Below are positions 1 to 11,206 of a DNA stretch of 64,000 nt, in pieces. This DNA is from a phage. The translations under genes and the position numbers were made by a program. The stretch lies in sequence record PX418213.1. The stretch is one strand, 5' to 3'. Each line of letters starts with the position of its first letter. The stretch's first letter is position 1. The notes beneath the pieces are model-generated. The model was given only the letters and a program-made list of their open reading frames with translations. It was not told the origin of the DNA and ran no database searches.

Positions 1-122
1 GTCCAGTGGGTTGGGAGAGAATACTTAGTCTGCTAACCGCCACCCCCGTTACTATTACCATGCTAAATGTTTCACCCTGCAACCATTTTAATTGCAAGGT
101 GAAACAATTTCAACTTTAATTA

Positions 123-899
123 TTACGCGACTTTTAGTTTCTCAATATATTGTTGCGGGCTGCAACTATATTCTGCGCGTTCTTCTTCTGTCATACTTTC
201 CCAACATAGTTTTAAGCGATCGGCTAGGAACTGATAATCATTATCATCCTCGAGCGATTCATCAATAAAGGTTCCGCCTATCAATGCCACGCCGATTGAT
301 AGAATATCATTAACGGCTTGCGCGTCCAACGTTTTAAATCCGTATGATGCCGCCGCTGATAATACACCTTTATGATCATCAATCATTGTAAAATCAGCGT
401 TCGGGTATAGCTGTTTAAATAATCCAAAGTAGTAACTTTTATATACTGCGTCCTTGCTGTGGTATATTTCGCTAACCTTATCAGCTTCAAAATATTTGTG
501 CAGTGTATCGCGGGAAAATACACGGATATTACTATCCCCACGCCCGCGCAAGCCTTGCTTGCGTAGGAAGTAATAATCTGATTTGCTCATCAGGCGAGCG
601 GTACAAATAAGGTTTAAGGTATTTGCGTCATTCATGCATTGGCGCATATATTCAACTAATGGTAATAAGGTGTCTTGCATTATTAAATGATGCTTGCAAG
701 CCTCGTTTTTGTATTTATTTAAATCTAAATTCCCGTCGCTATCAAAGCAAGGCGCTACGCGATGGAATGAGTTAACGATAGTGCCATCAAGATCCCAAAT
801 CATGACGCGGGAAACATGAGGAAAGCTACGGGTAATATTCGTTTTAACTTGATTCATTTTGTTACGTTCTCCATTAAAGGGATGTAGTTTATCCAGCAT
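123..899 (-). CDS. dmp: HAD-family 5'-deoxyribonucleotidase-like phosphatase (T5 dmp-like)
   Basis: 258-aa ORF; HAD motif I (IWDLDGTIVNS) near N-terminus; sits beside A1-like gene as in T5 pre-early region. Confidence 0.6.
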   Translation of the reverse strand: MLDKLHPFNGERNKMNQVKTNITRSFPHVSRVMIWDLDGTIVNSFHRVAPCFDSDGNLDLNKYKNEACKHHLIMQDTLLPLVEYMRQCMNDANTLNLICTARLMSKSDYYFLRKQGLRGRGDSNIRVFSRDTLHKYFEADKVSEIYHSKDAVYKSYYFGLFKQLYPNADFTMIDDHKGVLSAAASYGFKTLDAQAVNDILSIGVALIGGTFIDESLEDDNDYQFLADRLKLCWESMTEEERAEYSCSPQQYIEKLKVA

Positions 900-937
900 T
901 GCCCGCTATCTATCAGCGGGCAATAATAAATCAACTA

Positions 938-1330
938 TTAAAGACCAAAGGCCAGCGCATCAGCGATAAAACTAATATCTTCTCCTGATACGTGGGAACG
1001 AATGCCCGCGCATGTAAATACCTTCGCGCTCATTAGTTGATCATCAAGACAAGCCGGACAAGGCGCGACAACTGCAAACGCTAGGCCGGATTTCACGGCG
1101 TCGATGATAATCGTTTCCTGCTTCACCGTATCAACATAAACGCCTGCGGCCTTGATGTGACTACTTGCGCGGCCTTGCGTATAGGCGAAAGTCGTGATCT
1201 GCAGCGCCTCGTTAAACTCGAGTAAATCATCAACAACGTGACCGGCCTCAACGTGATACCGCTCCCCATTAGAATAAACCAGAACGATTGAGGATTGAGC
1301 GCGATCGAATGGAATATTTTGCTTTTTCAT
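938..1330 (-). CDS. hypothetical pre-early protein
   Basis: 130-aa ORF co-directional between dmp-like and A1-like genes; no recognised motif. Confidence 0.5.
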   Translation of the reverse strand: MKKQNIPFDRAQSSIVLVYSNGERYHVEAGHVVDDLLEFNEALQITTFAYTQGRASSHIKAAGVYVDTVKQETIIIDAVKSGLAFAVVAPCPACLDDQLMSAKVFTCAGIRSHVSGEDISFIADALAFGL

Positions 1331-1397
1331 AGTTATAAAACTCCAATTAATTTAATAAGGGAAATAAGCGAGGTATATACCCCGCTTATAAATTTAA

Positions 1398-3083
1398 TTA
1401 TGCGAAAAACTTACCGTTTTTAAAGTCAATCAAAGTGCGCTGGCCGTTCGCATAGGTAATTAAATGCGTTTGCGTCCAGCTTGACGCGCCAACGTTATAG
1501 CCCATATCTAGGGAACCAGCAACGCCCGCCGTATATACGCCGCCGTAAATGCTGGCGGTGTGAGTGTGCCCCGTGTTTAACTTGCCCAATTTCTTAAACT
1601 GCTTAGGATTGCCACGGCTGCCGTTTATGCCGTTGTGACCGTGTACGCCGCATTCAATGCCTGCAATCTTGAAAGATTGATCAGTCGTTAGGAAAATCGC
1701 GTTAAACTCGCAACCTGCGACGGTACGCAGCGCATAATCTAGCACGTTGAAAGTATCATCCTGCCTTGCAATAGCTGCATAGATAGCGGCATTCAGGCGG
1801 TGATATAATTCCGCGTTTGCTGGATCGTCTTTAATGTTAGCATTGCGATCATCAAGCCAACGGGATAGCGCCAGATCGTGGTTTGATTCCACAATGATTG
1901 TTTGACTAAAATCACGTTCCATTGATTCCAGCACGCGCCCGGTATCGATGAGATCATCCAGAACCTTATCACGTCCGGCTGCATACTGTTTCGCTAGAAA
2001 TACACCAGAAGCGCGGTTATGGTGGTTGCGCGATGTAAAATCATGCACGTCATGCACAAATTGATATTTTGGCTTGAGAATATCCACTAGCCCATAAGTA
2101 TCACCGTGCCCCCATGACGCTGCGGCGCACTCCTCATCAAGTTTTTCGGCGTGTATGTCGCCATATTGCAAGCCTAAAACATGCCCCGACGTTTCAAAGC
2201 ATCCGGTGGGAGTAGCGCAAACGTTCAGATCGTAAAACATGCCGCTTTCGTCCATCGTTTCAAGCTGGCGCACAAAAAACTCACCGTCTTCGTCGAACTC
2301 AACAATCAGCGCACCGAAATTATGCAATGCTTCCGCTTTCTGTCCTGCTTTCTGCTGAATGTAGTTTTTAAGCGTTGCCGTTCCGGTGGAATACATGCGG
2401 CGCACTACTTCACCTTTGAGAGCTGGCACGCTTTCGGCGGTGATTTTAGCGTGACCAATTGCCAGACCTTCCAGATTAAGCGCGGTTGCAGTTTCTGCGA
2501 ATCCAGACAGCGGATAGTCTGCGGTGGGCAAAACATTAATTTCAGCCATGAAAGCGAAACGGCGGTTATTTAAAAACACGTTTTTACTGCAAATATATTT
2601 ATCAAACGCGGAATCATATTTGATTCCGTCTGCGCCTTCCCCATTCTGGAATCCGTTTTTATTATAAATATACTTGCTAACCAGCAAATCAGCGCCGATA
2701 AATTGGGCGTATTGCTCCAACGCGGCTAAAAAGTTTTTATGCGGGAAAGTATTATTTTGAATCGACGTTAGAATAAAGCGTTTACCTTGTTTTACTTCCC
2801 ACTGTTCCACCGTGCTAGAAATAATTCCAGCCGCTTCGGGGCGCTCGTCGTTTTTAATGGCTTTTGCTACTTTCGCCGCTTTTGGTTTCGCTGGTTTATT
2901 TGCTTCCAGCCAATCACAAATCGCGGTGGAGTGTTTTGCAGTATCGTAAACCGCTTTCGAAATATCGTCACAAACTTCCAGCTTGGTGGCGCGCAGACGT
3001 TTACCATAGAAATTAAAGTCAGCGGCCAGCTTCAGGATAACGGTTTGCTTTTCTGCGGAAATAATCATAGTAATAAGCTCCAT
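1398..3083 (-). CDS. A1: A1-like pre-early protein, calcineurin-like metallophosphoesterase
   Basis: 561-aa ORF; phosphoesterase motifs GDIHAE, SNHD, GHTHT; size and position match T5 A1. Confidence 0.6.
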   Translation of the reverse strand: MELITMIISAEKQTVILKLAADFNFYGKRLRATKLEVCDDISKAVYDTAKHSTAICDWLEANKPAKPKAAKVAKAIKNDERPEAAGIISSTVEQWEVKQGKRFILTSIQNNTFPHKNFLAALEQYAQFIGADLLVSKYIYNKNGFQNGEGADGIKYDSAFDKYICSKNVFLNNRRFAFMAEINVLPTADYPLSGFAETATALNLEGLAIGHAKITAESVPALKGEVVRRMYSTGTATLKNYIQQKAGQKAEALHNFGALIVEFDEDGEFFVRQLETMDESGMFYDLNVCATPTGCFETSGHVLGLQYGDIHAEKLDEECAAASWGHGDTYGLVDILKPKYQFVHDVHDFTSRNHHNRASGVFLAKQYAAGRDKVLDDLIDTGRVLESMERDFSQTIIVESNHDLALSRWLDDRNANIKDDPANAELYHRLNAAIYAAIARQDDTFNVLDYALRTVAGCEFNAIFLTTDQSFKIAGIECGVHGHNGINGSRGNPKQFKKLGKLNTGHTHTASIYGGVYTAGVAGSLDMGYNVGASSWTQTHLITYANGQRTLIDFKNGKFFA

Positions 3084-3164
3084 TAAAGGGATAAAAAACG
3101 TTTGTTATTGGCAAATGTTGCCAAATATAACGCCTCCAATAATAGGCGTTATAATTTGCAATAT

Positions 3165-3410
3165 TTAACTAATAGGCATCAGGCTAGAACTAACACCGCA
3201 AACAACGGCGGCAATAAAACAAATCAGGCCCAAACGCTTCGCTAACTTAGATTTGCGTTTAAAATAATACGAATCTAAATCATTTTGAAAATATGCGAAC
3301 AATAACGAGGCCGCCACAATAAATAGGCCTAAAATTAAGGATTCAGTAGGAAAGAAAATCATTTTAATAACTCCAATTAAAGGGAAATTATAGTGGGGAA
3401 TAATCCCCAC
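3165..3410 (-). CDS. small membrane protein
   Basis: 81-aa ORF with two hydrophobic segments. Confidence 0.5.
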   Translation of the reverse strand: MGIIPHYNFPLIGVIKMIFFPTESLILGLFIVAASLLFAYFQNDLDSYYFKRKSKLAKRLGLICFIAAVVCGVSSSLMPIS

Positions 3411-3419
3411 TAATTAAAT

Positions 3420-3827
3420 TTATTCACCTGCGGCTTGTTTTACCTCATCGGCAACGCCTAACAACTGCGCCACGGCGTCCAGCGTTTCCAGCTTCGCGCT
3501 TTCAAGGCTTGCCAGATCATCGGCGTCCTTGATAATGCCGGAATCGATAGCGTGTTTTGCAATTACTCGCACATAGTGAGCTTTACGGATTGAGCTGCCG
3601 CCGCCAACCTTGCGCGGCTTGTCGCTTTTTTGGTAGGCTTTCGCGCTGGTCAATTTCGAACGAACTGACACGGGAGAAGCCGCACCAACTGCTTTCGCGA
3701 TCTCTTTCAAGCCGTCGCTATTTGCGAATTCTAGCCCGTTTTCATTGATTAACTGCTGATACATGGAAACAGCCTGCTGGGTGTTTTCTTCGTTCCAGGA
3801 AAATTTTGCGGCTTTAACGTTAGTCAT
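3420..3827 (-). CDS. hypothetical protein
   Basis: 135-aa ORF, co-directional, tightly packed. Confidence 0.55.
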   Translation of the reverse strand: MTNVKAAKFSWNEENTQQAVSMYQQLINENGLEFANSDGLKEIAKAVGAASPVSVRSKLTSAKAYQKSDKPRKVGGGSSIRKAHYVRVIAKHAIDSGIIKDADDLASLESAKLETLDAVAQLLGVADEVKQAAGE

Positions 3828-3927
3828 GGTAAAAACTCCAATTAATTTAATTTAAGGGATTAAATGATTAACTAATGTTAATCGTTATATGCCCCGAACT
3901 ACTGGGGCATATAAAGTTAACACTAAT

Positions 3928-4179
3928 TTATAAAACGGCTTCCCATTTTTCGTTGCGTTGAACAACCTTTACAACGTCGCCGGATTTAACGCGAACGTTA
4001 TAAATCGGCTTGCCGTTGTTACTGCGCTCATTTTCAGCGTATACCGCGTCGATTGTATCGAACGGCATGAGCGCCGCGCCTTTAATACGTTCGGCTTTTC
4101 CGGTCAATTCATCCGTTTTAGTAACGAAAGGAATAAAAACGGATTGACCAACTTTCGGCGCATTAATAACGTTTTTCAT
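3928..4179 (-). CDS. hypothetical protein
   Basis: 83-aa ORF. Confidence 0.5.
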   Translation of the reverse strand: MKNVINAPKVGQSVFIPFVTKTDELTGKAERIKGAALMPFDTIDAVYAENERSNNGKPIYNVRVKSGDVVKVVQRNEKWEAVL

Positions 4180-4408
4180 GGTATAAACTCCAAGTTATTT
4201 GTGGATTGTTCCGCATTATCTGCTACTTTCTAGCAGACAATAAGAAAAAATCCGCTAGCCATTATAAAATCAATTTAAGGAACTCCACGCGGGCCGCTAT
4301 ATCCCAGTTAGGGGGCGGGATGCATTATGGTAAGCACCGACCGTCAGATTTTATCAAGTTATCGCTCTTATCGAACTGGGTACATCTTAAAGCCTATCGG
4401 CTAGGGTG

Positions 4409-4585
4409 TCAAATAGTTTTTTCGTTTTCTTTTAAGTTAGGATCTTCCCAACTGAATAGCATTTCGCAAAATATTTTCCCATCTTTATGATGGTAAGCTA
4501 TTTCACTTCCGTGGTTAGCACAAAAATTAATCACCGCTTCAGCTTGTTCTACCGTGATATTGTTAGCCGTTTCTTTGATTTTCAT
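4409..4585 (-). CDS. small hypothetical protein (58 aa)
   Basis: hand-translated MKIKETANNITVEQ...; AAGGA RBS 9 nt upstream; below ORF-track length cutoff. Confidence 0.3.
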   Translation of the reverse strand: MKIKETANNITVEQAEAVINFCANHGSEIAYHHKDGKIFCEMLFSWEDPNLKENEKTI

Positions 4586-5010
4586 ATCGTCGATTCCTTA
4601 TAATGTAATAAGTTTACCGCCGATAGGCTTTAAGATATACCCAATTTTTAAAGAGCGCGGCGGTAAACTTCCCGCCGTGTAGTTCGTCATTGCCGCCCTA
4701 CGAGATAAATAATAACAAACAACGAAAAAGGCGCAACCTTATATTTGTAAAGAAATGTAAAGACAAACGCCACCGGACACCGTGCGGCGACCTGGGCGCA
4801 GCGCATTAAAATTAAAAGAAACGGGCGCGCGAATAACACAAAACATAGCAGATAGGCAAGTAATTTTTTCACTTATATTTGCTTTGGGGGTATTGACAAA
4901 ATCTAAAAAGCTCGTGGCAGCGATAAACGACGTGGCCCCTTATGATTGGATGGCCAAAAACTTTATTGCGTTCTGGGGCGTTTTAGGCGCATTCTAGCCT
5001 TGTTGATAAC

Positions 5011-5076
5011 TTATCCACAGAAGCAAAAATGAAATTTTCCTAGTTATCCACTTGACTTTTATTTTCCAGTGGATAA
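5011..5076. promoter_or_regulatory. DnaA-box-like cluster with perfect inverted pair
   Basis: TTATCCACA at 5011-5019; AGTTATCCACT (5042-5052) and AGTGGATAACT (5068-5078) form an 11-bp inverted repeat. Confidence 0.5.
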
Positions 5077-5275
5077 CTACTTATTTTATGAAATAAATTA
5101 ATTGACTTTTATTTGCTAGTATGCATCGGAAAGATAGCAGACTAATAATTGCTAGGATGATGATCATGCTGGTGGATTGTAACGGCCTGAATTATTAGCA
5201 GACTGTTAATCAGGGAAAATCTCATTAGCCAACTAACTATTTCATGATATATAATATACTTATAAATTAATGAGA

Positions 5276-5360
5276 AATAATAACTATAAGAAATCATCAT
5301 CATTATAATAATAACTATAAGAAATCATCATCATTATAATAATAACTATAAGAAACTATC
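5276..5360. repeat. 31-bp tandem repeat, about 2.7 copies
   Basis: unit aataataactataagaaatcatcatcattat repeated head-to-tail. Confidence 0.7.
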
Positions 5361-5365
5361 GGCAT

Positions 5366-5497
5366 AAGTGAGAACCACTATCATTTAAGTTATCCACAAC
5401 GTTATCCACAGCACAAAATAATTTGACACGATAGGCGGCGATATGAGGGCTTTTACACAGACTTATCCACAGGTTATCCTACTGTATAAATATACAG
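5366..5497. repeat. left arm of ~130-bp imperfect inverted repeat with three TTATCCACA boxes
   Basis: reverse complement closely matches 8755-8886 at both ends (gtgagaac...ttatccaca...ctgtataaatatacag). Confidence 0.65.
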
Positions 5498-5786
5498 GGT
5501 AAAAAGGCAGTGTTAACGACTGCAATCAATTTTAGGCGGCCTAAAACGCTTTCTAACGAGCTAAACGCTGCGGGGTAATATTAAAGTAAAGACCCAACAC
5601 GTCGCCCTGATGGCTTCAGTGCGTCGCCCTGGTGGCTTCGCCGTGTTTTGCTCGTTACTACACCGCTGCGCGGTTAGCATAAAATTAGGCGTTAGGCAAG
5701 AAAAATAAAAAAGTAAAATAATCTTTGCCTATGCTAGAAAATTACCTTTATCATTCACTCACCGATTAACGAGAGGGGCCGAACAA

Positions 5787-6773
5787 ATGAGGCTATATAA
5801 ACCAGATAACGCAACCGTCTTAAAAGGTGCGCTGCGTAACCTGCTGGACGGTAGCAGAACAACCAGCATTAAGCATTTTGTTTTCAATATTGAAACTATT
5901 CATCAAAACTTTTTTGATGATTATGATGCTTATAATATGAATAGTTTTCTACCGTTATATAAGCAAGGGGCAACGCTTGTTTTATATAATCAGGATTATC
6001 AATTACTTACTAGTCGGGGGCCGGATACTGATTTCATAATAGTAAAAGGCAACACAGTAAAAGCCTATGATACTGGGGCGGGCCTAGAAGTTTTTTCAAT
6101 AGAAAACTATGAGGCCAATGATAATGATCTTTATGACGTAGAAAATTTTCTCGATTCATTTTGGCGTTATTTATCAGTTGGCTGGAATCGGTCGGATTCT
6201 GATGGGTATCGTTTTGCGGCTATAATGGCCTTTGATGATAACGGTAATTTTTTGCTACCGTCGGAGTTATATAATCGGGTATATGAAGGCGATATTGTTG
6301 ACGCCGGATTTTCTTTCGAAAGGGAAGAAAGTATTGGCAATATAGAAAAACATGTTGTAAATTCTAACACTAAAAACGTTCACACTCAAACTACTGAAAA
6401 CAAAGGAAAAAATACCATGACCAAGATTGCTAACATCGTTGCCGCTAATAAATCCGCCGTTGTAAACGCTGCAAAACTGGAAGCGGGTAAAATTGCACTA
6501 ACTCAAATCACGAAAGTAGCGGCTAAAAAAGCACCGTTCATGATCAGAGGCTATATTGATACGCCGATTGGTCGCGTAGTGATCGCTAACCTGCTGAGTG
6601 TAGCGGTTGACCAGTACGCCCCGAGTAACCAGAAAGCGAAAGCGGTAGCAAGCGCGGCAATGGAAGCGGCTATGTTAGAAATGGTGCAATCTTTTAACAT
6701 CGCTGAGATGATCGATGAAATGGTAAAAGGTATCGATATTTCTACTTTTACCAATAACACCGAAAACGAGTAA
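5787..6773 (+). CDS. hypothetical protein (328 aa)
   Basis: long plus-strand ORF with GAGAGGGG RBS; first gene of inverted-repeat-bounded block. Confidence 0.6.
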   Translation: MRLYKPDNATVLKGALRNLLDGSRTTSIKHFVFNIETIHQNFFDDYDAYNMNSFLPLYKQGATLVLYNQDYQLLTSRGPDTDFIIVKGNTVKAYDTGAGLEVFSIENYEANDNDLYDVENFLDSFWRYLSVGWNRSDSDGYRFAAIMAFDDNGNFLLPSELYNRVYEGDIVDAGFSFEREESIGNIEKHVVNSNTKNVHTQTTENKGKNTMTKIANIVAANKSAVVNAAKLEAGKIALTQITKVAAKKAPFMIRGYIDTPIGRVVIANLLSVAVDQYAPSNQKAKAVASAAMEAAMLEMVQSFNIAEMIDEMVKGIDISTFTNNTENE

Positions 6774-6890
6774 TAAATAATCTAATGTAAAGTTTTGTAA
6801 AGGTCGCCTTTTATGGTGGCCTTTTTTGTTATAATGCCTTTACACCGTTCGAGGACGGTTGAAATTTTCCCAAAATTTTGGAGGCTTAAA

Positions 6891-7121
6891 ATGGTTGCTT
6901 TTTCTTCTGCTAGTCATCTTTTCACTGGAAAAGGCTGGGTATCAAATCGCTGGATCATTCAAGAAATGGTGCAAGAGTACGGCATCGCTAAAACTTATAC
7001 TACCATACAGGCGCTTTATGATAATGATCAGATTGATCAGCAAACGGCGGGCTTTTTACTGGATACCCTGAAGGCGGAGCACTGTACCAAAAAACAAGCG
7101 GCCAAAATTATTTTAATGTAA
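6891..7121 (+). CDS. hypothetical protein
   Basis: ORF 6813..7121 with start moved to ATG 6891 behind GGAGG RBS. Confidence 0.5.
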   Translation: MVAFSSASHLFTGKGWVSNRWIIQEMVQEYGIAKTYTTIQALYDNDQIDQQTAGFLLDTLKAEHCTKKQAAKIILM

Positions 7122-7170
7122 TCAATAACGGGGGATATAATATCCCCCACTAACTAGGGGAGTATTACAA

Positions 7171-7350
7171 ATGGTTATTTTTCGAGCTTTTTTAGCGGGT
7201 ATCTTGGGCGCTATTCTTACTCTTTTTGCTACCGCTTACGGTATCCAAGATTATTGCGGCTTAGTAGTCACAAAACCTATGGTTACTATTGGCGCGGGTA
7301 TCGCTGTATTTTCTTATCTGCTGGGCTGCATGACTAGTAAAGGAGAATAA
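7171..7350 (+). CDS. small membrane protein (59 aa)
   Basis: hand-translated MVIFRAFLAGILGAILTLF...; GGGGAG RBS; hydrophobic. Confidence 0.45.
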   Translation: MVIFRAFLAGILGAILTLFATAYGIQDYCGLVVTKPMVTIGAGIAVFSYLLGCMTSKGE

Positions 7351-7352
7351 AA

Positions 7353-7565
7353 ATGATCCGCAACGTTTCTCTTGCACGTTCGAAAGGCTTTGCGCTGGTG
7401 GATGCTAACACGTTCGAGCGTCCTGATTGTAAAATTGAATATGTAGCACGTAATAAAAATGCCTTTCGTGTTACTGAAAAGAAATTCGACAAGCGCGGCA
7501 ACGTGATCCTTGAAACGGTCAGGCACTTTGCCACCTTTTACGCTGCGTTTCGTGGGGTACTATGA
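7353..7565 (+). CDS. hypothetical protein
   Basis: 70-aa ORF with AAAGGAGAA RBS. Confidence 0.55.
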   Translation: MIRNVSLARSKGFALVDANTFERPDCKIEYVARNKNAFRVTEKKFDKRGNVILETVRHFATFYAAFRGVL

Positions 7566-7693
7566 AAAGCGTTATTGTTGTTCTCCTTGCAATGGCTGGC
7601 GGTTTTATCGCCACCTTATTTAGGAATGACCCCGTTTCGCTGGGGATCTTTATGCTTTTATCTGGATACCTGATCGGGAGGTTATGCAAATGA
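7562..7693 (+). CDS. small membrane protein (43 aa)
   Basis: ATGA start/stop overlap with upstream gene; hydrophobic MKSVIVVLLAMAGGFIATLF. Confidence 0.35.
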   Translation: MKSVIVVLLAMAGGFIATLFRNDPVSLGIFMLLSGYLIGRLCK

Positions 7694-8034
7694 TCATTTA
7701 CGAGGGCAATCGTTTTGTTGCTAACTGCCGCCCGGCATTGTTAGCAAACTATTTAAACCAGCTTTCGCCAGCTTATAAGGGCGTTATTAATATTTATGAG
7801 GGCAAGGCGCATTATAAAATCAATGCGGTCGTTGCCCGTGAACTAGCGTTTCAATTTTTAACCTTCGCATCTTGCGACGTTCAGGTAATGGGTGAGGCAT
7901 TAATCGCAGAAAATGAGGATGATTTTATTAATATTTTTCGCAAGATATGCACCGAGCGCCTGATAATGAAAGGCGCGTATATTCAATCCACGGCTGATAG
8001 TATTGAAACAGCGTTTCGAAAGGTGGCGCAATGA
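7684..8034 (+). CDS. hypothetical protein
   Basis: 116-aa ORF, overlapping-coupled with neighbours. Confidence 0.55.
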   Translation: MQMIIYEGNRFVANCRPALLANYLNQLSPAYKGVINIYEGKAHYKINAVVARELAFQFLTFASCDVQVMGEALIAENEDDFINIFRKICTERLIMKGAYIQSTADSIETAFRKVAQ

Positions 8035-8246
8035 GTGAAATTACTTGGAATATGTTGCTGAAGGTTAAACGGGTAAAATTAACGCAGGATTTATGGGGAG
8101 TAGGTAAAACTGGGGATGTATTCACTGTGTTTAAAGACGCCCATCATAGGTTTATAAGAAGGAATAACAATACCGGTACAGCGTTTTATTTAATTGATTT
8201 AATCAAATTACATGGTGAGGATATTTTCAAACTAGAATATGAGTAA
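8031..8246 (+). CDS. hypothetical protein
   Basis: 71-aa ORF, ATGA overlap with upstream gene. Confidence 0.5.
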   Translation: MSEITWNMLLKVKRVKLTQDLWGVGKTGDVFTVFKDAHHRFIRRNNNTGTAFYLIDLIKLHGEDIFKLEYE

Positions 8247-8301
8247 CTATATAATTTTGGCGTATTGCAATGAGATAGCCAACTAATAACGGAGCGTTAT
8301 T

Positions 8302-8496
8302 ATGAGCAATAAAATTGTTGTAACCAAAACTACTACGATGGTAGACGTTTTTTACGTGCCCAATACGCCGGAGAATCGACAAGCGGTTGAGCGTGGGGAA
8401 TATGATAAAGTGATCTATGATCACGATGGTTATTATCAGTATTTGGTGGATTCATACGGGGAGGAGGAAAAGATCACGCATCAACTACCTGACTAA
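8302..8496 (+). CDS. hypothetical protein
   Basis: 64-aa ORF, last gene of plus-strand block. Confidence 0.5.
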   Translation: MSNKIVVTKTTTMVDVFYVPNTPENRQAVERGEYDKVIYDHDGYYQYLVDSYGEEEKITHQLPD

Positions 8497-8754
8497 TAAT
8501 CACGGGGCGCAACTATCCGGGAGTGCCCCCAATTTTCAAACGATAATCATTCTCATTTGACCGCGCTCGCGATGGTTAGCCTGCTAATGGTTCGGGTGTT
8601 ACGTGTCGCCTTGTGTGATCGTTAGCGTGCTAACTAATTTTCAAGCCTCCTCCAATTTTGCCCTTGTTTTAGTATCTCCACCAAAATAAAACGCGTTAGA
8701 ATGCGTTTGAGAGCGTTTTAGCGGTATATTAGAATTATTCACTACATAGGAATA

Positions 8755-8886
8755 CTGTATATTTATACAGTAGGATAAGCTGTGGATAAGTCTGTTAATA
8801 ACGCCTCAAAATGGCTAGGATTCTGTCAAGTCAAATCGTGCTGTTAATAAGTCTGTGGATAACTTAAATAACAGTGTTTCTCACTT
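8755..8886. repeat. right arm of ~130-bp imperfect inverted repeat with TGTGGATAA boxes
   Basis: ctgtatatttatacagtaggataagctgtggataag ... tgtggataacttaaataacagtgtttctcac mirrors 5366-5497. Confidence 0.65.
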
Positions 8887-8889
8887 CCG

Positions 8890-9125
8890 TTCTTAAATGA
8901 GAATCATTATCATTTGCATTTCACTATCTAACTAATAATCATTCCACTTTTTAAATGAGAATCGTTCCACTTCCTGAATAATTTTCGTTCCACTTTCTAA
9001 ATGATAATCGTTATCATTTGCATTCCTCTTTCTAAATGCGAATCATTCCACTTCTTAAATGAGAATCGTTTCACTTTTTAAATGAGAATTATTATCATTC
9101 TCATTCCGCTTTTTAAATGAGAATG
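8890..9125. repeat. array of about 7 TAAATGAGAAT-type motifs
   Basis: taaatgagaat and variants (taaatgataat, taaatgcgaat) at irregular 23-60 bp spacing in AT-rich DNA. Confidence 0.6.
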
Positions 9126-9148
9126 ATTCTTATTATCATTCGTATTTA

Positions 9149-9170
9149 GCGCAGGGCAATTGCCCTGCGC
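9149..9170. promoter_or_regulatory. perfect 22-bp palindrome GCGCAGGGCAATTGCCCTGCGC
   Basis: exact palindrome between the two repeat arrays. Confidence 0.6.
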
Positions 9171-9174
9171 TTTT

Positions 9175-9397
9175 GTGCAAATCCGACATTGCTCCACGGG
9201 TGTTACGTGCGGGCGTGTATGTGCGAATCCGACAATTTTTGGTAGTGTGCAAATCCGACTCGAAAAATTTTTATAGTGTGCAAATCCGACAATGAATTTT
9301 TCTAGAAACTCCAGCAATCTCGAACTGCGCATCAATCCTGTGGAGTATGTGCAAATCCGACATGGTTTTTCTAGGATTAAGATGTGCGAATCCGACA
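9175..9397. repeat. six direct copies of GTGC(A/G)AATCCGAC, each followed by a T-run
   Basis: copies at 9175, 9221, 9247, 9278, 9349, 9384. Confidence 0.7.
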
Positions 9398-9725
9398 AGA
9401 TTTTTGTGACTTCGATGAGAGGGTGTGTGATTGTGTGAGTTTGAGGAGAAGTTGAGAGAGCGAGTGAAACTTGGGGGAACTGCGAGAGGGGCGCATGTTT
9501 GGTGCAGGGCACCTGATTTGCGGGGATTTTGGGGAAGAGTTGAGAAGATTTGGGTTAATTTGAGATTAGGGGAGATAAAGTAAAATTTTATTAGCAAAAT
9601 GGGGCAAAATAGCTTGACAAGTGAAAATTTCTGTGGCTCTAAAAACTCAGGCAATCATGGGCCTTCGGCCCGAAATAATGCTGCTATTTTCAGGAGATTA
9701 TATGTTCCTAAAAACTTAGGCAATT

Positions 9726-9774
9726 GTGCAAATCCGACCATAAATTTCTAGAAACACAATGTGCGAATCCGACA
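9726..9774. repeat. two further GTGC(A/G)AATCCGAC copies
   Basis: gtgcaaatccgacc at 9726 and gtgcgaatccgaca at 9761. Confidence 0.65.
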
Positions 9775-10284
9775 GTAATTTCTGGAAATGTGTTTTCAAA
9801 AAATGTCCCCTAGAAATAACCGCCCTCCTCATAACCGCCCTGTATTAAACCGCCTAGTATATGTTCCTAGAAACTTAGGAGAACCGCCCACTAGAAGTGT
9901 AGTATCTCGTGAGTATTTCGTGAGAACTCTGGAGTTTCTAGGAAAGTGTTGTGCCACCCTAGCAGATGAGCGGCAACAGGTGTATCATCTTGAATGTAAA
10001 TTATGTGGTCAAAAGTTTTACTTTTATTTTAAATATAAGATCCCCCAGGGTTCTCATATAGAGCTTTGCCCCCGCCAGAAGGTCTCGTGGTGTTTCTAGC
10101 AATTTATATTAAATTACTTATTAACTTGTCCTGTCGCTCCGTATCCTCCGCTACAAGTTAGTAATTTTAAATTACTGAACCACCACACCTTCTGTGTGGC
10201 AACTCTAAATGGTTAATTCTATTAACTCATAGAGTTATGATAACATACATTTAGCTATCTGTCAACGAGAGTTTGTATTTGAGT

Positions 10285-10309
10285 CTCGGTACAGATATTG
10301 TGCACCGAG
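10285..10309. other. stem-loop at boundary of repeat region and early genes
   Basis: CTCGGT (10285-10290) pairs with ACCGAG (10304-10309), 13-nt loop. Confidence 0.4.
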
Positions 10310-10321
10310 ACATGCAGGATC

Positions 10322-11206
10322 TTACAGTAACTCTTGGTATGCTTTTTGATACGCCTCAGTGTCAGTAGGTGTATCTTTTGCTAGTGCAATTAGTTCATCT
10401 GTTATCTGAATATTCGTATTATAACGTGAGTGGAACTCGTTAGGAATTTCTAGGTATCTATTGATGAATGCTGCAGCAAGCGGTGTGACTAAACCAATCT
10501 CTAGAGATAGCTTAACTTGTTTTTCGTAGATTAAATATTGAGAATCAGATGGGGTTGGTGGGGTTACATCAGTTTTCTCCGGTTCTTTTTCTGGAAGCAA
10601 GGGATTATTATATAATGCTTCATCTGGAAGCACAGATTTACGCTCTTTAAATATATAAGTTTCTAGATCCGATGCTTTAGATCCTGAGTATACCGCAAAG
10701 ACGCTAGCTTTACCCTGGGATGCCCTAACTGGTAAATAACTAGTAGGATAGCTTCTTAATGCATCATGGAATGGACTTCCTGAGTACTTGTACGTATCCC
10801 CATAGAGATCATCAATATTCATTCGTTCATCTTCAAAAATGTGAAAAGAGCTAAATGATGGGATAGTAAAGTATTCCATCTGTAATCCATAAACTAAGAA
10901 ACGATGTGCATATGCGCTAATCTTTAAGACTGTGAATGCTTTTTCACCTTCTTTATGGGCGTTGCCTTTTGAAGTAACTTGATAACGTTTACAAAACATC
11001 TCTACTAGACGTTTCTCATTAATACTAAGGGTGGAGTATAGTCGTCCACTTAATCCTATAAGTGCATCGAACATAAATGCTAGTTTATCTTTTTCTTCCT
11101 GAGATAGTTCTGGAAACGGTAATACTTTCGCATTAGGAACATTATTGTTCTCTTTAGGTTTTGTTTTACCAGCATTTTGTCTTAGTTTATCTTTAAAGTT
11201 ATACAT
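10322..11206 (-). CDS. hypothetical protein
   Basis: 294-aa ORF. Confidence 0.6.
   Translation of the reverse strand: MYNFKDKLRQNAGKTKPKENNNVPNAKVLPFPELSQEEKDKLAFMFDALIGLSGRLYSTLSINEKRLVEMFCKRYQVTSKGNAHKEGEKAFTVLKISAYAHRFLVYGLQMEYFTIPSFSSFHIFEDERMNIDDLYGDTYKYSGSPFHDALRSYPTSYLPVRASQGKASVFAVYSGSKASDLETYIFKERKSVLPDEALYNNPLLPEKEPEKTDVTPPTPSDSQYLIYEKQVKLSLEIGLVTPLAAAFINRYLEIPNEFHSRYNTNIQITDELIALAKDTPTDTEAYQKAYQELL

What the first reader, a model, noticed from the sequence alone, without database searches (positions are those of the whole stretch)
5366..8886. About 3.4-kb plus-strand gene block bounded by ~130-bp imperfect inverted repeats rich in DnaA-box-like motifs
The arms 5366-5497 and 8755-8886 are reverse complements with closely matching ends and divergent middles, each with several TTATCCACA/TGTGGATAA boxes. 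They enclose eight plus-strand ORFs (5787-8496), the only plus-strand genes in the first 36 kb. Further DnaA boxes (a perfect inverted pair at 5042-5078) and a 31-bp tandem repeat sit just outside. This looks like an origin-like, invertible or mobile cassette rather than ordinary intergenic DNA.
Basis: seen in the sequence. Interest (0 to 1): 0.7.

Follow-up and report, generated by a model that had tools for sequence, protein, structure and literature searches.

The report
Phage T5 pre-early inverted repeats
These are the known, already annotated 131-bp inverted repeats with DnaA boxes in the first-injected end of T5-like phage genomes, thought to help pause DNA injection; they are not a replication origin, a transposon or a switch.

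Summary
Arms 5366-5497 and 8755-8886 match at 103 of 132 positions, against at most 70 in shuffles. They carry eight DnaA-type boxes in four pairs and enclose eight plus-strand ORFs.

The element is not new. The window is the left terminal repeat (first-step-transfer DNA) of a T5-like phage. The arms are orthologues of T5's annotated IRC-spacer-IRD and IRD'-spacer-IRC' repeats. Davison proposed these as part of the injection stop signal, acting through membrane-bound DnaA; this is untested.

I found no transposase, invertase or target-site duplication. No inverted isomer appeared in 391 related genomes, and the arms show no co-evolution.

Four results add to the published account:
- **Left arm dispensable.** A 2026 T5 deletion mutant, whose primers I mapped, removes the left arm and the whole block and is still viable.
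- **LexA-type site.** The inner end of each arm is an SOS-box-like palindrome (right arm 19/20 to consensus), conserved across seven lineages of the family. I found no report of it in the literature I could read.
- **Fur-box-like array.** These palindromes sit just right of the right arm.
- **Ancient inversion.** The block lies in the opposite orientation in Sugarlandvirus and in the Pectobacterium phages DU_PP_V and My1.

Verdict: already known, low interest as a discovery. The function is still open.

The parts
5366..5497 (.). Left arm, orthologue of T5 IRC-spacer-IRD (outer 39 nt, 52-nt spacer, inner 41 nt)
   Evidence: annotated in T5 record AY587007 at 6022-6152
5390..5410 (+). DnaA box pair TTATCCACA-acg-TTATCCACA
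5451..5471 (+). DnaA box pair TTTTACACA-gac-TTATCCACA
5480..5499 (.). LexA/SOS-box-like palindrome TACTGTATAAATATACAGGG (17/20 to consensus)
   Evidence: conserved in 23 relatives
5787..6773 (+). ORF1, DUF7566 protein (T5 gene 011 family)
   Evidence: homologues in 506 phage records
6813..7121 (+). ORF2 (phrog_5145; the family matches only residues 27-102, so the true start is probably the ATG at 6892)
7171..7350 (+). ORF3, small protein; the T5 homologue is annotated with two transmembrane domains
7353..7565 (+). ORF4, homologue of the T5 Ung-dependent abasic-site nickase
7562..7693 (+). ORF5 (phrog_19184)
7684..8034 (+). ORF6 (phrog_4379)
8031..8246 (+). ORF7, no family hit; this stretch aligns in few relatives
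8302..8496 (+). ORF8 (phrog_6973)
8753..8772 (.). LexA/SOS-box-like palindrome TACTGTATATTTATACAGTA (19/20 to consensus)
   Evidence: identical 20-mer upstream of the tum-like gene of 186-like phage SEN1
8755..8886 (.). Right arm, orthologue of T5 IRD'-spacer-IRC'; lies inside the 'injection stop signal' feature of the T5 reference record
8781..8801 (-). Box pair TTATTAACA-gac-TTATCCACA, read on the minus strand
8842..8862 (-). Box pair TTATCCACA-gac-TTATTAACA, read on the minus strand
8893..9141 (.). Adjacent repeat array (T5 DRE/DRC, palindromes E-I) built of Fur-box-like palindromes
5276..5368 (.). 31-bp AT-rich tandem repeat, about 3 copies, abutting the left arm; specific to this lineage
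5042..5078 (.). Perfect 11-nt inverted pair AGTTATCCACT / AGTGGATAACT (near-DnaA boxes)

Best explanation
**Identity (shown).** The window begins at the left end of a T5-like phage (Demerecviridae). The finding lies in the left terminal repeat, which is the first-step-transfer (pre-early) DNA. The two arms are orthologues of the T5 repeats IRC-spacer-IRD and IRD'-spacer-IRC'. They bracket the rightward pre-early operon (T5 genes 011-017).

**What the arms are (shown).** They are two old, diverged copies of a roughly 132-bp non-coding module. Each copy is held by purifying selection on its own. The arms are not kept complementary to one another.

**Module content (shown).**
- Two pairs of DnaA-type boxes: 3 bp apart within a pair, 61 bp from pair start to pair start.
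- A LexA-operator-like palindrome at the inner end.

**Most likely function (inferred).** Host DNA-binding proteins already present in the cell load onto the arms as the DNA enters. DnaA is the published candidate and LexA is my added candidate.
- The right copy, together with the adjacent repeat array, lies in the region where transfer pauses at about 8% of the genome. It probably contributes to that pause or to membrane anchoring.
- The left copy is an accessory duplicate lying between the divergent pre-early transcription units.

**What it is not.** It is not a replication origin, a transposon or a programmed invertible switch. Recombination at the arms has nevertheless inverted the enclosed block at least once in the family's history.
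For: **Identity.**
- The region is 89-93% identical and collinear with Spc35, HMD-P4 and other Tequintavirus genomes. Spc35 annotates 1-9573 as 'left TR; first-step-transfer DNA'.
- The arms align without gaps to T5's annotated IRC/IRD and IRD'/IRC'.
- The right arm falls inside 'injection stop signal (iss)' in NC_005859.
- The eight-box layout and the 52-nt spacer match Davison's description (10.1101/866236).

**Selection on each arm separately (22 distinct arm pairs).**
- Left-versus-right identity is 0.768 within a genome and 0.765 between genomes (permutation p = 0.08).
- Left arms are 0.87 identical to one another, and right arms 0.93.
- The block between the arms varies from 1590 to 4060 nt.

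**Left arm dispensable.** The primers for the T5 'hegG to 017' deletion (10.64898/2026.04.02.716235) map to T5 5392 and 9082. The deletion therefore removes 6022-6152 and the whole block. The phage is viable with small plaques.

**LexA-like site.**
- Right arm 19/20 and left arm 17/20 to TACTGTATATATATACAGTA; these are the only two such sites in 64 kb.
- The right-arm site has 1-2 mismatches in all 23 relatives that could be scored.
- ACTG...ACAG is invariant in 13 arms from 7 lineages.
- The same 20-mer sits upstream of the tum-like gene of the 186-like phage SEN1.

**Host factors fit the biology.** According to Davison's review, transfer stops in vivo without protein synthesis.

**Inversion.**
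Against: - No experiment has tested these sites. The BF23 paper says so explicitly (PMC10644984).
- The exact stop site is unmapped.
- DnaA, LexA and Fur binding are inferred from sequence alone. The palindrome could equally bind a phage protein such as A2.
- The left arm can be deleted. The 'both arms form one complex' version of the model is therefore not required for growth.
- The module could instead act on the nearby pre-early promoters.
- I could not read Heusterspreute 1987, Wang 2005 or Davison 2015. The LexA resemblance may already be noted there.
Confidence: 0.6

Rival explanations
1. Transcriptional control module. The arms are operators where DnaA or LexA tune the divergent pre-early promoters or insulate the rightward operon. 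On this reading they have no role in stopping DNA transfer.
For: - In T5 the left arm lies between the annotated divergent promoters T5P3 and T5P4.
- A promoter-like site on the minus strand (5516-5489, 10/12) puts its -10 hexamer inside the left palindrome. Another (8707-8735, 10/12) fires into the right palindrome.
- LexA and DnaA boxes are classic operator elements (established knowledge).
Against: [quoted passage not shown]
- The right arm lies downstream of the operon's terminator-like sites.
- The right arm is the better conserved copy (0.93 against 0.87).
Confidence: 0.22
2. DnaA-dependent replication origin or secondary origin. The box cluster plus the adjacent AT-rich tract would act like oriC.
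For: - Eight boxes in ordered pairs.
- 150 nt of 19-29% GC directly outside the left arm in every relative examined.
- Three AT-rich 31-bp repeats in this phage.
Against: - Electron-microscopy mapping places T5 origins near the genome centre, and T5 replication genes are in the second-step DNA (Davison).
- The left arm with its AT-rich neighbour can be deleted.
- The GC skew here simply follows gene orientation.
Confidence: 0.06
3. Programmed invertible segment. A recombinase flips the block between the arms to switch expression.
For: - Inverted repeats flank a unidirectional operon.
- Both orientations exist across the family.
Against: - No invertase or tyrosine recombinase in or beside the block.
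- A simulated inverted junction is found in 0 of 391 genomes, against 128 of 511 for the real junction.
- Orientation tracks the lineage rather than varying within it, in the records checked.
Confidence: 0.02
4. Mobile element. A transposon-like cassette bounded by terminal inverted repeats.
For: Terminal inverted repeats enclose variable cargo.
Against: - No transposase.
- The flanks CTATCGGCAT and CCGTTCTTAA are not a target duplication.
- The element is found only at this locus of T5-like phages.
- Some lineages keep the right arm with only part of the left arm, or with none detected.
Confidence: 0.02
5. Long-range DNA structure. The two arms pair with each other (stem-loop or synapsis), and that structure blocks transfer.
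For: The inverted arrangement is conserved, and such a 'knot' is part of Davison's discussion.
Against: - There is no covariation. Arms of one genome are no more alike than arms of different genomes.
- The spacer is only 58% complementary.
- The distance between arms varies 2.5-fold.
- The left arm is dispensable.
Confidence: 0.05

Closest known systems
Bacteriophage T5 inverted repeats IRC-spacer-IRD (AY587007 6022-6152) and IRD'-spacer-IRC' (9332-9462), part of the proposed injection stop signal
   Same: - Same position in the left terminal repeat.
- Same length and the same 52-nt spacer.
- Same four pairs of DnaA-type boxes.
- 83% (left) and 92% (right) sequence identity.
   Different: Only detail differs.
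- This phage has all eight boxes, whereas T5 has seven.
- It lacks the hegG homing-endonuclease insertion next to the left arm.
- It has a lineage-specific 31-bp tandem repeat.
E. coli oriC and other chromosomal DnaA-box clusters such as datA and DARS
   Same: Ordered clusters of TTATNCACA boxes beside AT-rich DNA.
   Different: - No evidence of unwinding or initiation here.
- The boxes come as head-to-tail pairs 3 bp apart, duplicated in inverted orientation 3.3 kb apart.
- They sit on DNA that is present in the cell for minutes before the replication genes arrive.
LexA operator of the tum (p95) promoter in 186-like temperate phages
   Same: The right-arm 20-mer TACTGTATATTTATACAGTA is identical to the site upstream of the tum-like gene of phage SEN1.
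   Different: - Here the site is in a virulent phage.
- It does not demonstrably overlap a mapped promoter.
- It is duplicated at both ends of an operon.
Invertible segments of phages Mu (G), P1 (C) and Salmonella Hin
   Same: Inverted repeats bound a gene block.
   Different: - Those have short (26-34 bp) crossover sites, an adjacent serine invertase and mixed orientations within a population (established knowledge).
- None of these three features is present here.

Membership tests
T5-type IRC-spacer-IRD / IRD'-spacer-IRC' repeat pair | Lies in the left terminal repeat (FST DNA) of a T5-like genome, to the right of dmp-A1-A2 | tested here: met
   Window 123-3827 is collinear with dmp, A1 and A2 of Spc35, whose left TR is 1-9573.
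T5-type IRC-spacer-IRD / IRD'-spacer-IRC' repeat pair | Two arms of about 131 bp in inverted orientation, with conserved ends and a 52-bp spacer | tested here: met
   132-nt arms split as 39 + 52 + 41 nt.
T5-type IRC-spacer-IRD / IRD'-spacer-IRC' repeat pair | Eight DnaA or variant boxes in four pairs, each separated by 3 bp | tested here: met
   Boxes at 5390/5402, 5451/5463, 8781/8793 and 8842/8854.
T5-type IRC-spacer-IRD / IRD'-spacer-IRC' repeat pair | Sequence homology to the T5 arms, left to left and right to right | tested here: met
   Alignment A2; 83% and 92% identity.
Injection stop signal (functional) | DNA transfer pauses here until A1 and A2 are made | not testable with these tools
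   Needs a blender or qPCR transfer assay. The literature says the sites are untested.
DnaA-dependent replication origin | DnaA-box cluster | tested here: met
DnaA-dependent replication origin | Adjacent AT-rich unwinding element | tested here: inconclusive
   A 19-29% GC tract lies outside the left arm in all relatives. This is also the divergent promoter region.
DnaA-dependent replication origin | Initiation of replication at the site | not testable with these tools
   Published mapping places T5 origins mid-genome.
Site-specific invertible segment | Recombinase encoded in or next to the segment | tested here: not met
   Pfam and PHROG hits give only DUF7566, a nickase family and unknowns. 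The neighbours are pre-early genes.
Site-specific invertible segment | Both orientations among close relatives or within a population | tested here: not met
   0 of 391 records hold the inverted junction. All IMG/VR loci are collinear. Population reads are not available.
Transposon / insertion sequence | Transposase and target-site duplication | tested here: not met
LexA operator (SOS box) | Match to TACTG(TA)5CAGTA with CTG and CAG intact | tested here: met
   19/20 and 17/20; invariant ACTG...ACAG across 13 arms.
LexA operator (SOS box) | LexA binding and SOS-dependent effect | not testable with these tools
   Supported only by identity to the site upstream of a tum-like gene in SEN1.

The most novel reading that the evidence does not exclude
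The pause signal of T5-like phages is a landing pad for several host regulators rather than for DnaA alone. Each arm combines DnaA boxes with a near-perfect LexA operator, and the right arm is followed by an array of Fur-box-like palindromes. If these proteins form the roadblock, or set the timing of its release, the long-unexplained two-step DNA transfer would be coupled to the host's replication, SOS and iron status. One example would be LexA cleavage after A1-driven host DNA breakdown. The model could be tested directly in lexA, fur and dnaA hosts.
Probability: 0.15. Interest if true: 0.7.

Novelty: already known. Interest (0 to 1): 0.25.

Why it matters
How T5 stops after injecting 8% of its DNA has been unexplained since Lanni's classical two-step model, 52 years old when Davison wrote. 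These repeats are the leading candidate for the signal.

The finding itself re-discovers an annotated feature, so it adds nothing as a discovery. Four points from this check sharpen the open question:
- The left arm can be deleted, so attention should go to the right arm.
- The arms do not co-evolve, which argues against a pairing structure.
- A family-wide LexA-type site and a Fur-like array name new host factors to test alongside DnaA.
- The arms mark the limits of an ancient inversion of the pre-early operon.

Tried and rejected
- **Mobile element.** Rejected: no transposase and no target duplication.
- **Active inversion.** A simulated inverted junction found no genome, against a positive control with the real junction.
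- **Arm pairing or gene conversion.** A permutation test on 22 arm pairs showed no excess identity within genomes.
- **Structured RNA.** Rfam gave no match in 4600-10400.
- **31-bp tandem repeat as a conserved unwinding element.** The repeat itself is present only in a few close relatives.
- **Prior reports of LexA or Fur sites in T5.** Four literature searches found nothing relevant.
- **Unreadable papers.** Davison 2015 could not be read. Heusterspreute 1987 and Wang 2005 were not available to me either.
- **Viral-contig scan with a 16-mer.** Most loci returned from small metagenome contigs showed no arm homology and were ignored. Only loci with arm or flank homology were used.
Full report
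**1.
- The repeat finder returns one outstanding inverted repeat: 5366-5497 against 8755-8886, 132 nt, 78% complementary. That is 103 matches of 132. The best 132-nt inverted match in ten shuffles of the same 5 kb reached only 61-70.
- The ends match and the middle does not: outer 39 nt 85%, 52-nt spacer 58%, inner 41 nt 98%.
- TTATCCACA occurs six times in 64 kb, all between 5011 and 8862, with 0.66 expected.
- With the relaxed consensus, the arms hold eight boxes in four head-to-tail pairs. Boxes in a pair are 3 bp apart, and pair starts are 61 bp apart.
- Eight plus-strand ORFs fill 5787-8496.
- The 31-bp tandem repeat and the 11-nt inverted pair at 5042-5078 are also present.

**2. What it is.**
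- The region is 89-93% identical and collinear with many Tequintavirus genomes.
- Spc35 shares the window's coordinates and annotates 1-9573 as the left terminal repeat, the first-step-transfer DNA. It has dmp, A1 and A2 on the minus strand to the left.
- The T5 record AY587007 annotates inverted repeats C and D at 6022-6152 and D' and C' at 9332-9462. The window's arms align to them without gaps, left to left and right to right.
- The T5 reference record places the right arm inside a feature named 'injection stop signal (iss)'.
- Davison's preprint describes exactly this layout in 25 T5-like phages: 131-bp arms, a constant 52-bp spacer, and eight DnaA or variant boxes in pairs 3 bp apart. He traces the first DnaA box to a 1987 paper (10.1101/866236).
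- The finding is therefore a re-discovery of a known, annotated element.

**3. The enclosed genes.**
- ORF1 is a DUF7566 protein.
- ORF4 belongs to the family of the T5 Ung-dependent abasic-site nickase.
- The other ORFs are small proteins of unknown function.
- None is a transposase or recombinase.

**4.
- *Mobile cassette.* There is no transposase and no target-site duplication. The element is found only at this locus in T5-like phages.
- *Active inversion.* I built the junction that recombination at the arm midpoints would create and searched 50,697 phage records. No record covers 80% of it (0 of 391). The real junction is covered in 128 of 511. Every IMG/VR relative with both arms is collinear.
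- *Origin.* The box cluster beside a 19-29% GC tract is conserved. Davison cites mapping of T5 origins to the genome centre, and the left arm can be deleted (section 5).
- *Structured RNA.* Rfam finds nothing in 4600-10400.

**5. How the arms evolve, and which arm matters.**
- In 22 distinct arm pairs, the two arms of one genome are no more alike (0.768) than arms taken from different genomes (0.765; permutation p = 0.08).
- Each arm is much closer to its orthologues: left 0.87, right 0.93. The right spacer is far better conserved than the left (0.91 against 0.78).
- The arms are therefore not kept complementary. Each is conserved on its own, and the right arm more strongly.
- The distance between arms ranges from 1590 to 4060 nt.
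- A 2026 preprint built a viable T5 mutant, with small plaques, deleted from hegG to gene 017 (10.64898/2026.04.02.716235).
- Its primers map to T5 positions 5392 and 9082. The deletion therefore removes the left arm and the whole block and keeps the right arm. The authors do not comment on this; it is my inference.

**6. A LexA-type site.**
- The inner end of each arm is a palindrome. The right-arm copy, 8753-8772 (TACTGTATATTTATACAGTA), matches the SOS-box consensus at 19/20. The left-arm copy, 5480-5499, matches at 17/20.
- These are the only two sites within three mismatches of the consensus in 64 kb.
- The right-arm site has one or two mismatches in all 23 relatives that could be scored.
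- I aligned 13 arms from Tequintavirus, Pantoea AAS21, Sugarlandvirus, Hongcheonvirus, Novosibvirus and a Vibrio Pogseptimavirus. The ACTG...ACAG core and the neighbouring box pair are the invariant part.
- The same 20-mer lies just upstream of the tum-like 'UV induction' gene of the 186-like phage SEN1. In phage 186 that promoter is LexA-controlled (established knowledge).
- Davison's preprint does not mention LexA, and three literature searches for LexA found nothing. The older T5 papers could not be read.

**7. Inversion between genera.**
- Loci were oriented like the window, with A1 and A2 on the minus strand at left and the right arm at right.
- In Klebsiella phage GZ8, homologues of ORF6 and ORF1 (E = 4e-36) lie between the arms on the minus strand in reversed order.
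- In Pectobacterium phage DU_PP_V the same holds for ORF8, ORF6 and ORF1. The strands of the My1 and other Klebsiella phage matches agree.
- Pantoea AAS21 and Proteus PM135 keep the window's orientation.
- The outer spacer sequences stay with their flanks. The breakpoints therefore lie in, or just inside, the nearly identical inner 41-50 nt.

**8. Mechanism.**
- *Shown:* identity, conservation pattern, motif content, dispensability of the left arm, and the ancient inversion.
- *Inferred:* host proteins present before infection bind the arms as the DNA enters. This fits Davison's statement that the pause needs no protein synthesis. The right arm and its neighbouring repeats contribute to the pause or to membrane anchoring. 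The left arm is accessory, perhaps regulatory.
- The BF23 paper states that no experiment has tested these sites (PMC10644984).

**9. Verdict.** The element is already known. Interest as a discovery is low. The added observations are leads for an old open question, not conclusions.

Noticed in passing
window 8893-9141 (also 8536-8560): The repeat array just right of the right arm is built of palindromes such as TGAGAATCATTATCA and TGATAATCGTTATCA. They match the Fur-box consensus GATAATGATAATCATTATC at 15-16 of 19 positions. There are 13 hits of 14/19 or better in 274 nt, against 0.08 in local shuffles, although the copies are repeats and so not independent. Similar sites lie near the arms in T5 (palindromes G and I), a DT57C-like phage, DU_PP_V and a Vibrio phage, but not in GZ8. 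Davison 2020 does not mention Fur.
   Followed up: partly
window 227-251: A Fur-box-like site (16/19) lies inside the dmp coding region. It is conserved at the same place in T5 and in a DT57C-like phage.
   Followed up: no
window 9173-9405: Five copies of about 16 nt, GTGTGCAAATCCGACA, at irregular spacing. They are probably the counterpart of the T5 'direct repeat D' series near the end of the terminal repeat. Their function is unknown.
   Followed up: no
window 5488-5490 and 8762-8764; 22 arm pairs from related loci: The central three bases of the LexA-like palindrome flip between AAA and TTT. They do so independently in left and right arms of different phages, while the palindrome arms stay intact.
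   Followed up: partly
L002 (T5) 6055-6075; L129, L125, L123 right arms: The left arm of T5 and of two relatives carries the outer-spacer variant CTTATACATTTTGTAAA. In other genera that variant is found in the right arm. This suggests occasional exchange between the arms over long times.
   Followed up: no
window 5541-5558 and 8704-8721: A further 18-nt inverted pair (89% complementary) lies 34-44 nt inside each arm. The original duplication may therefore have been longer than 132 nt.
   Followed up: no
phage collection hits H61, H105, H133: Records labelled Listeria phage (3.4 and 14 kb) and Campylobacter phage A148 carry this T5-type element. They are probably mislabelled or contaminated entries.
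   Followed up: no
window 8031-8246: ORF7 has no PHROG or Pfam family, and this stretch aligns in only a few relatives. It is a variable or recently gained gene within the block.
   Followed up: no
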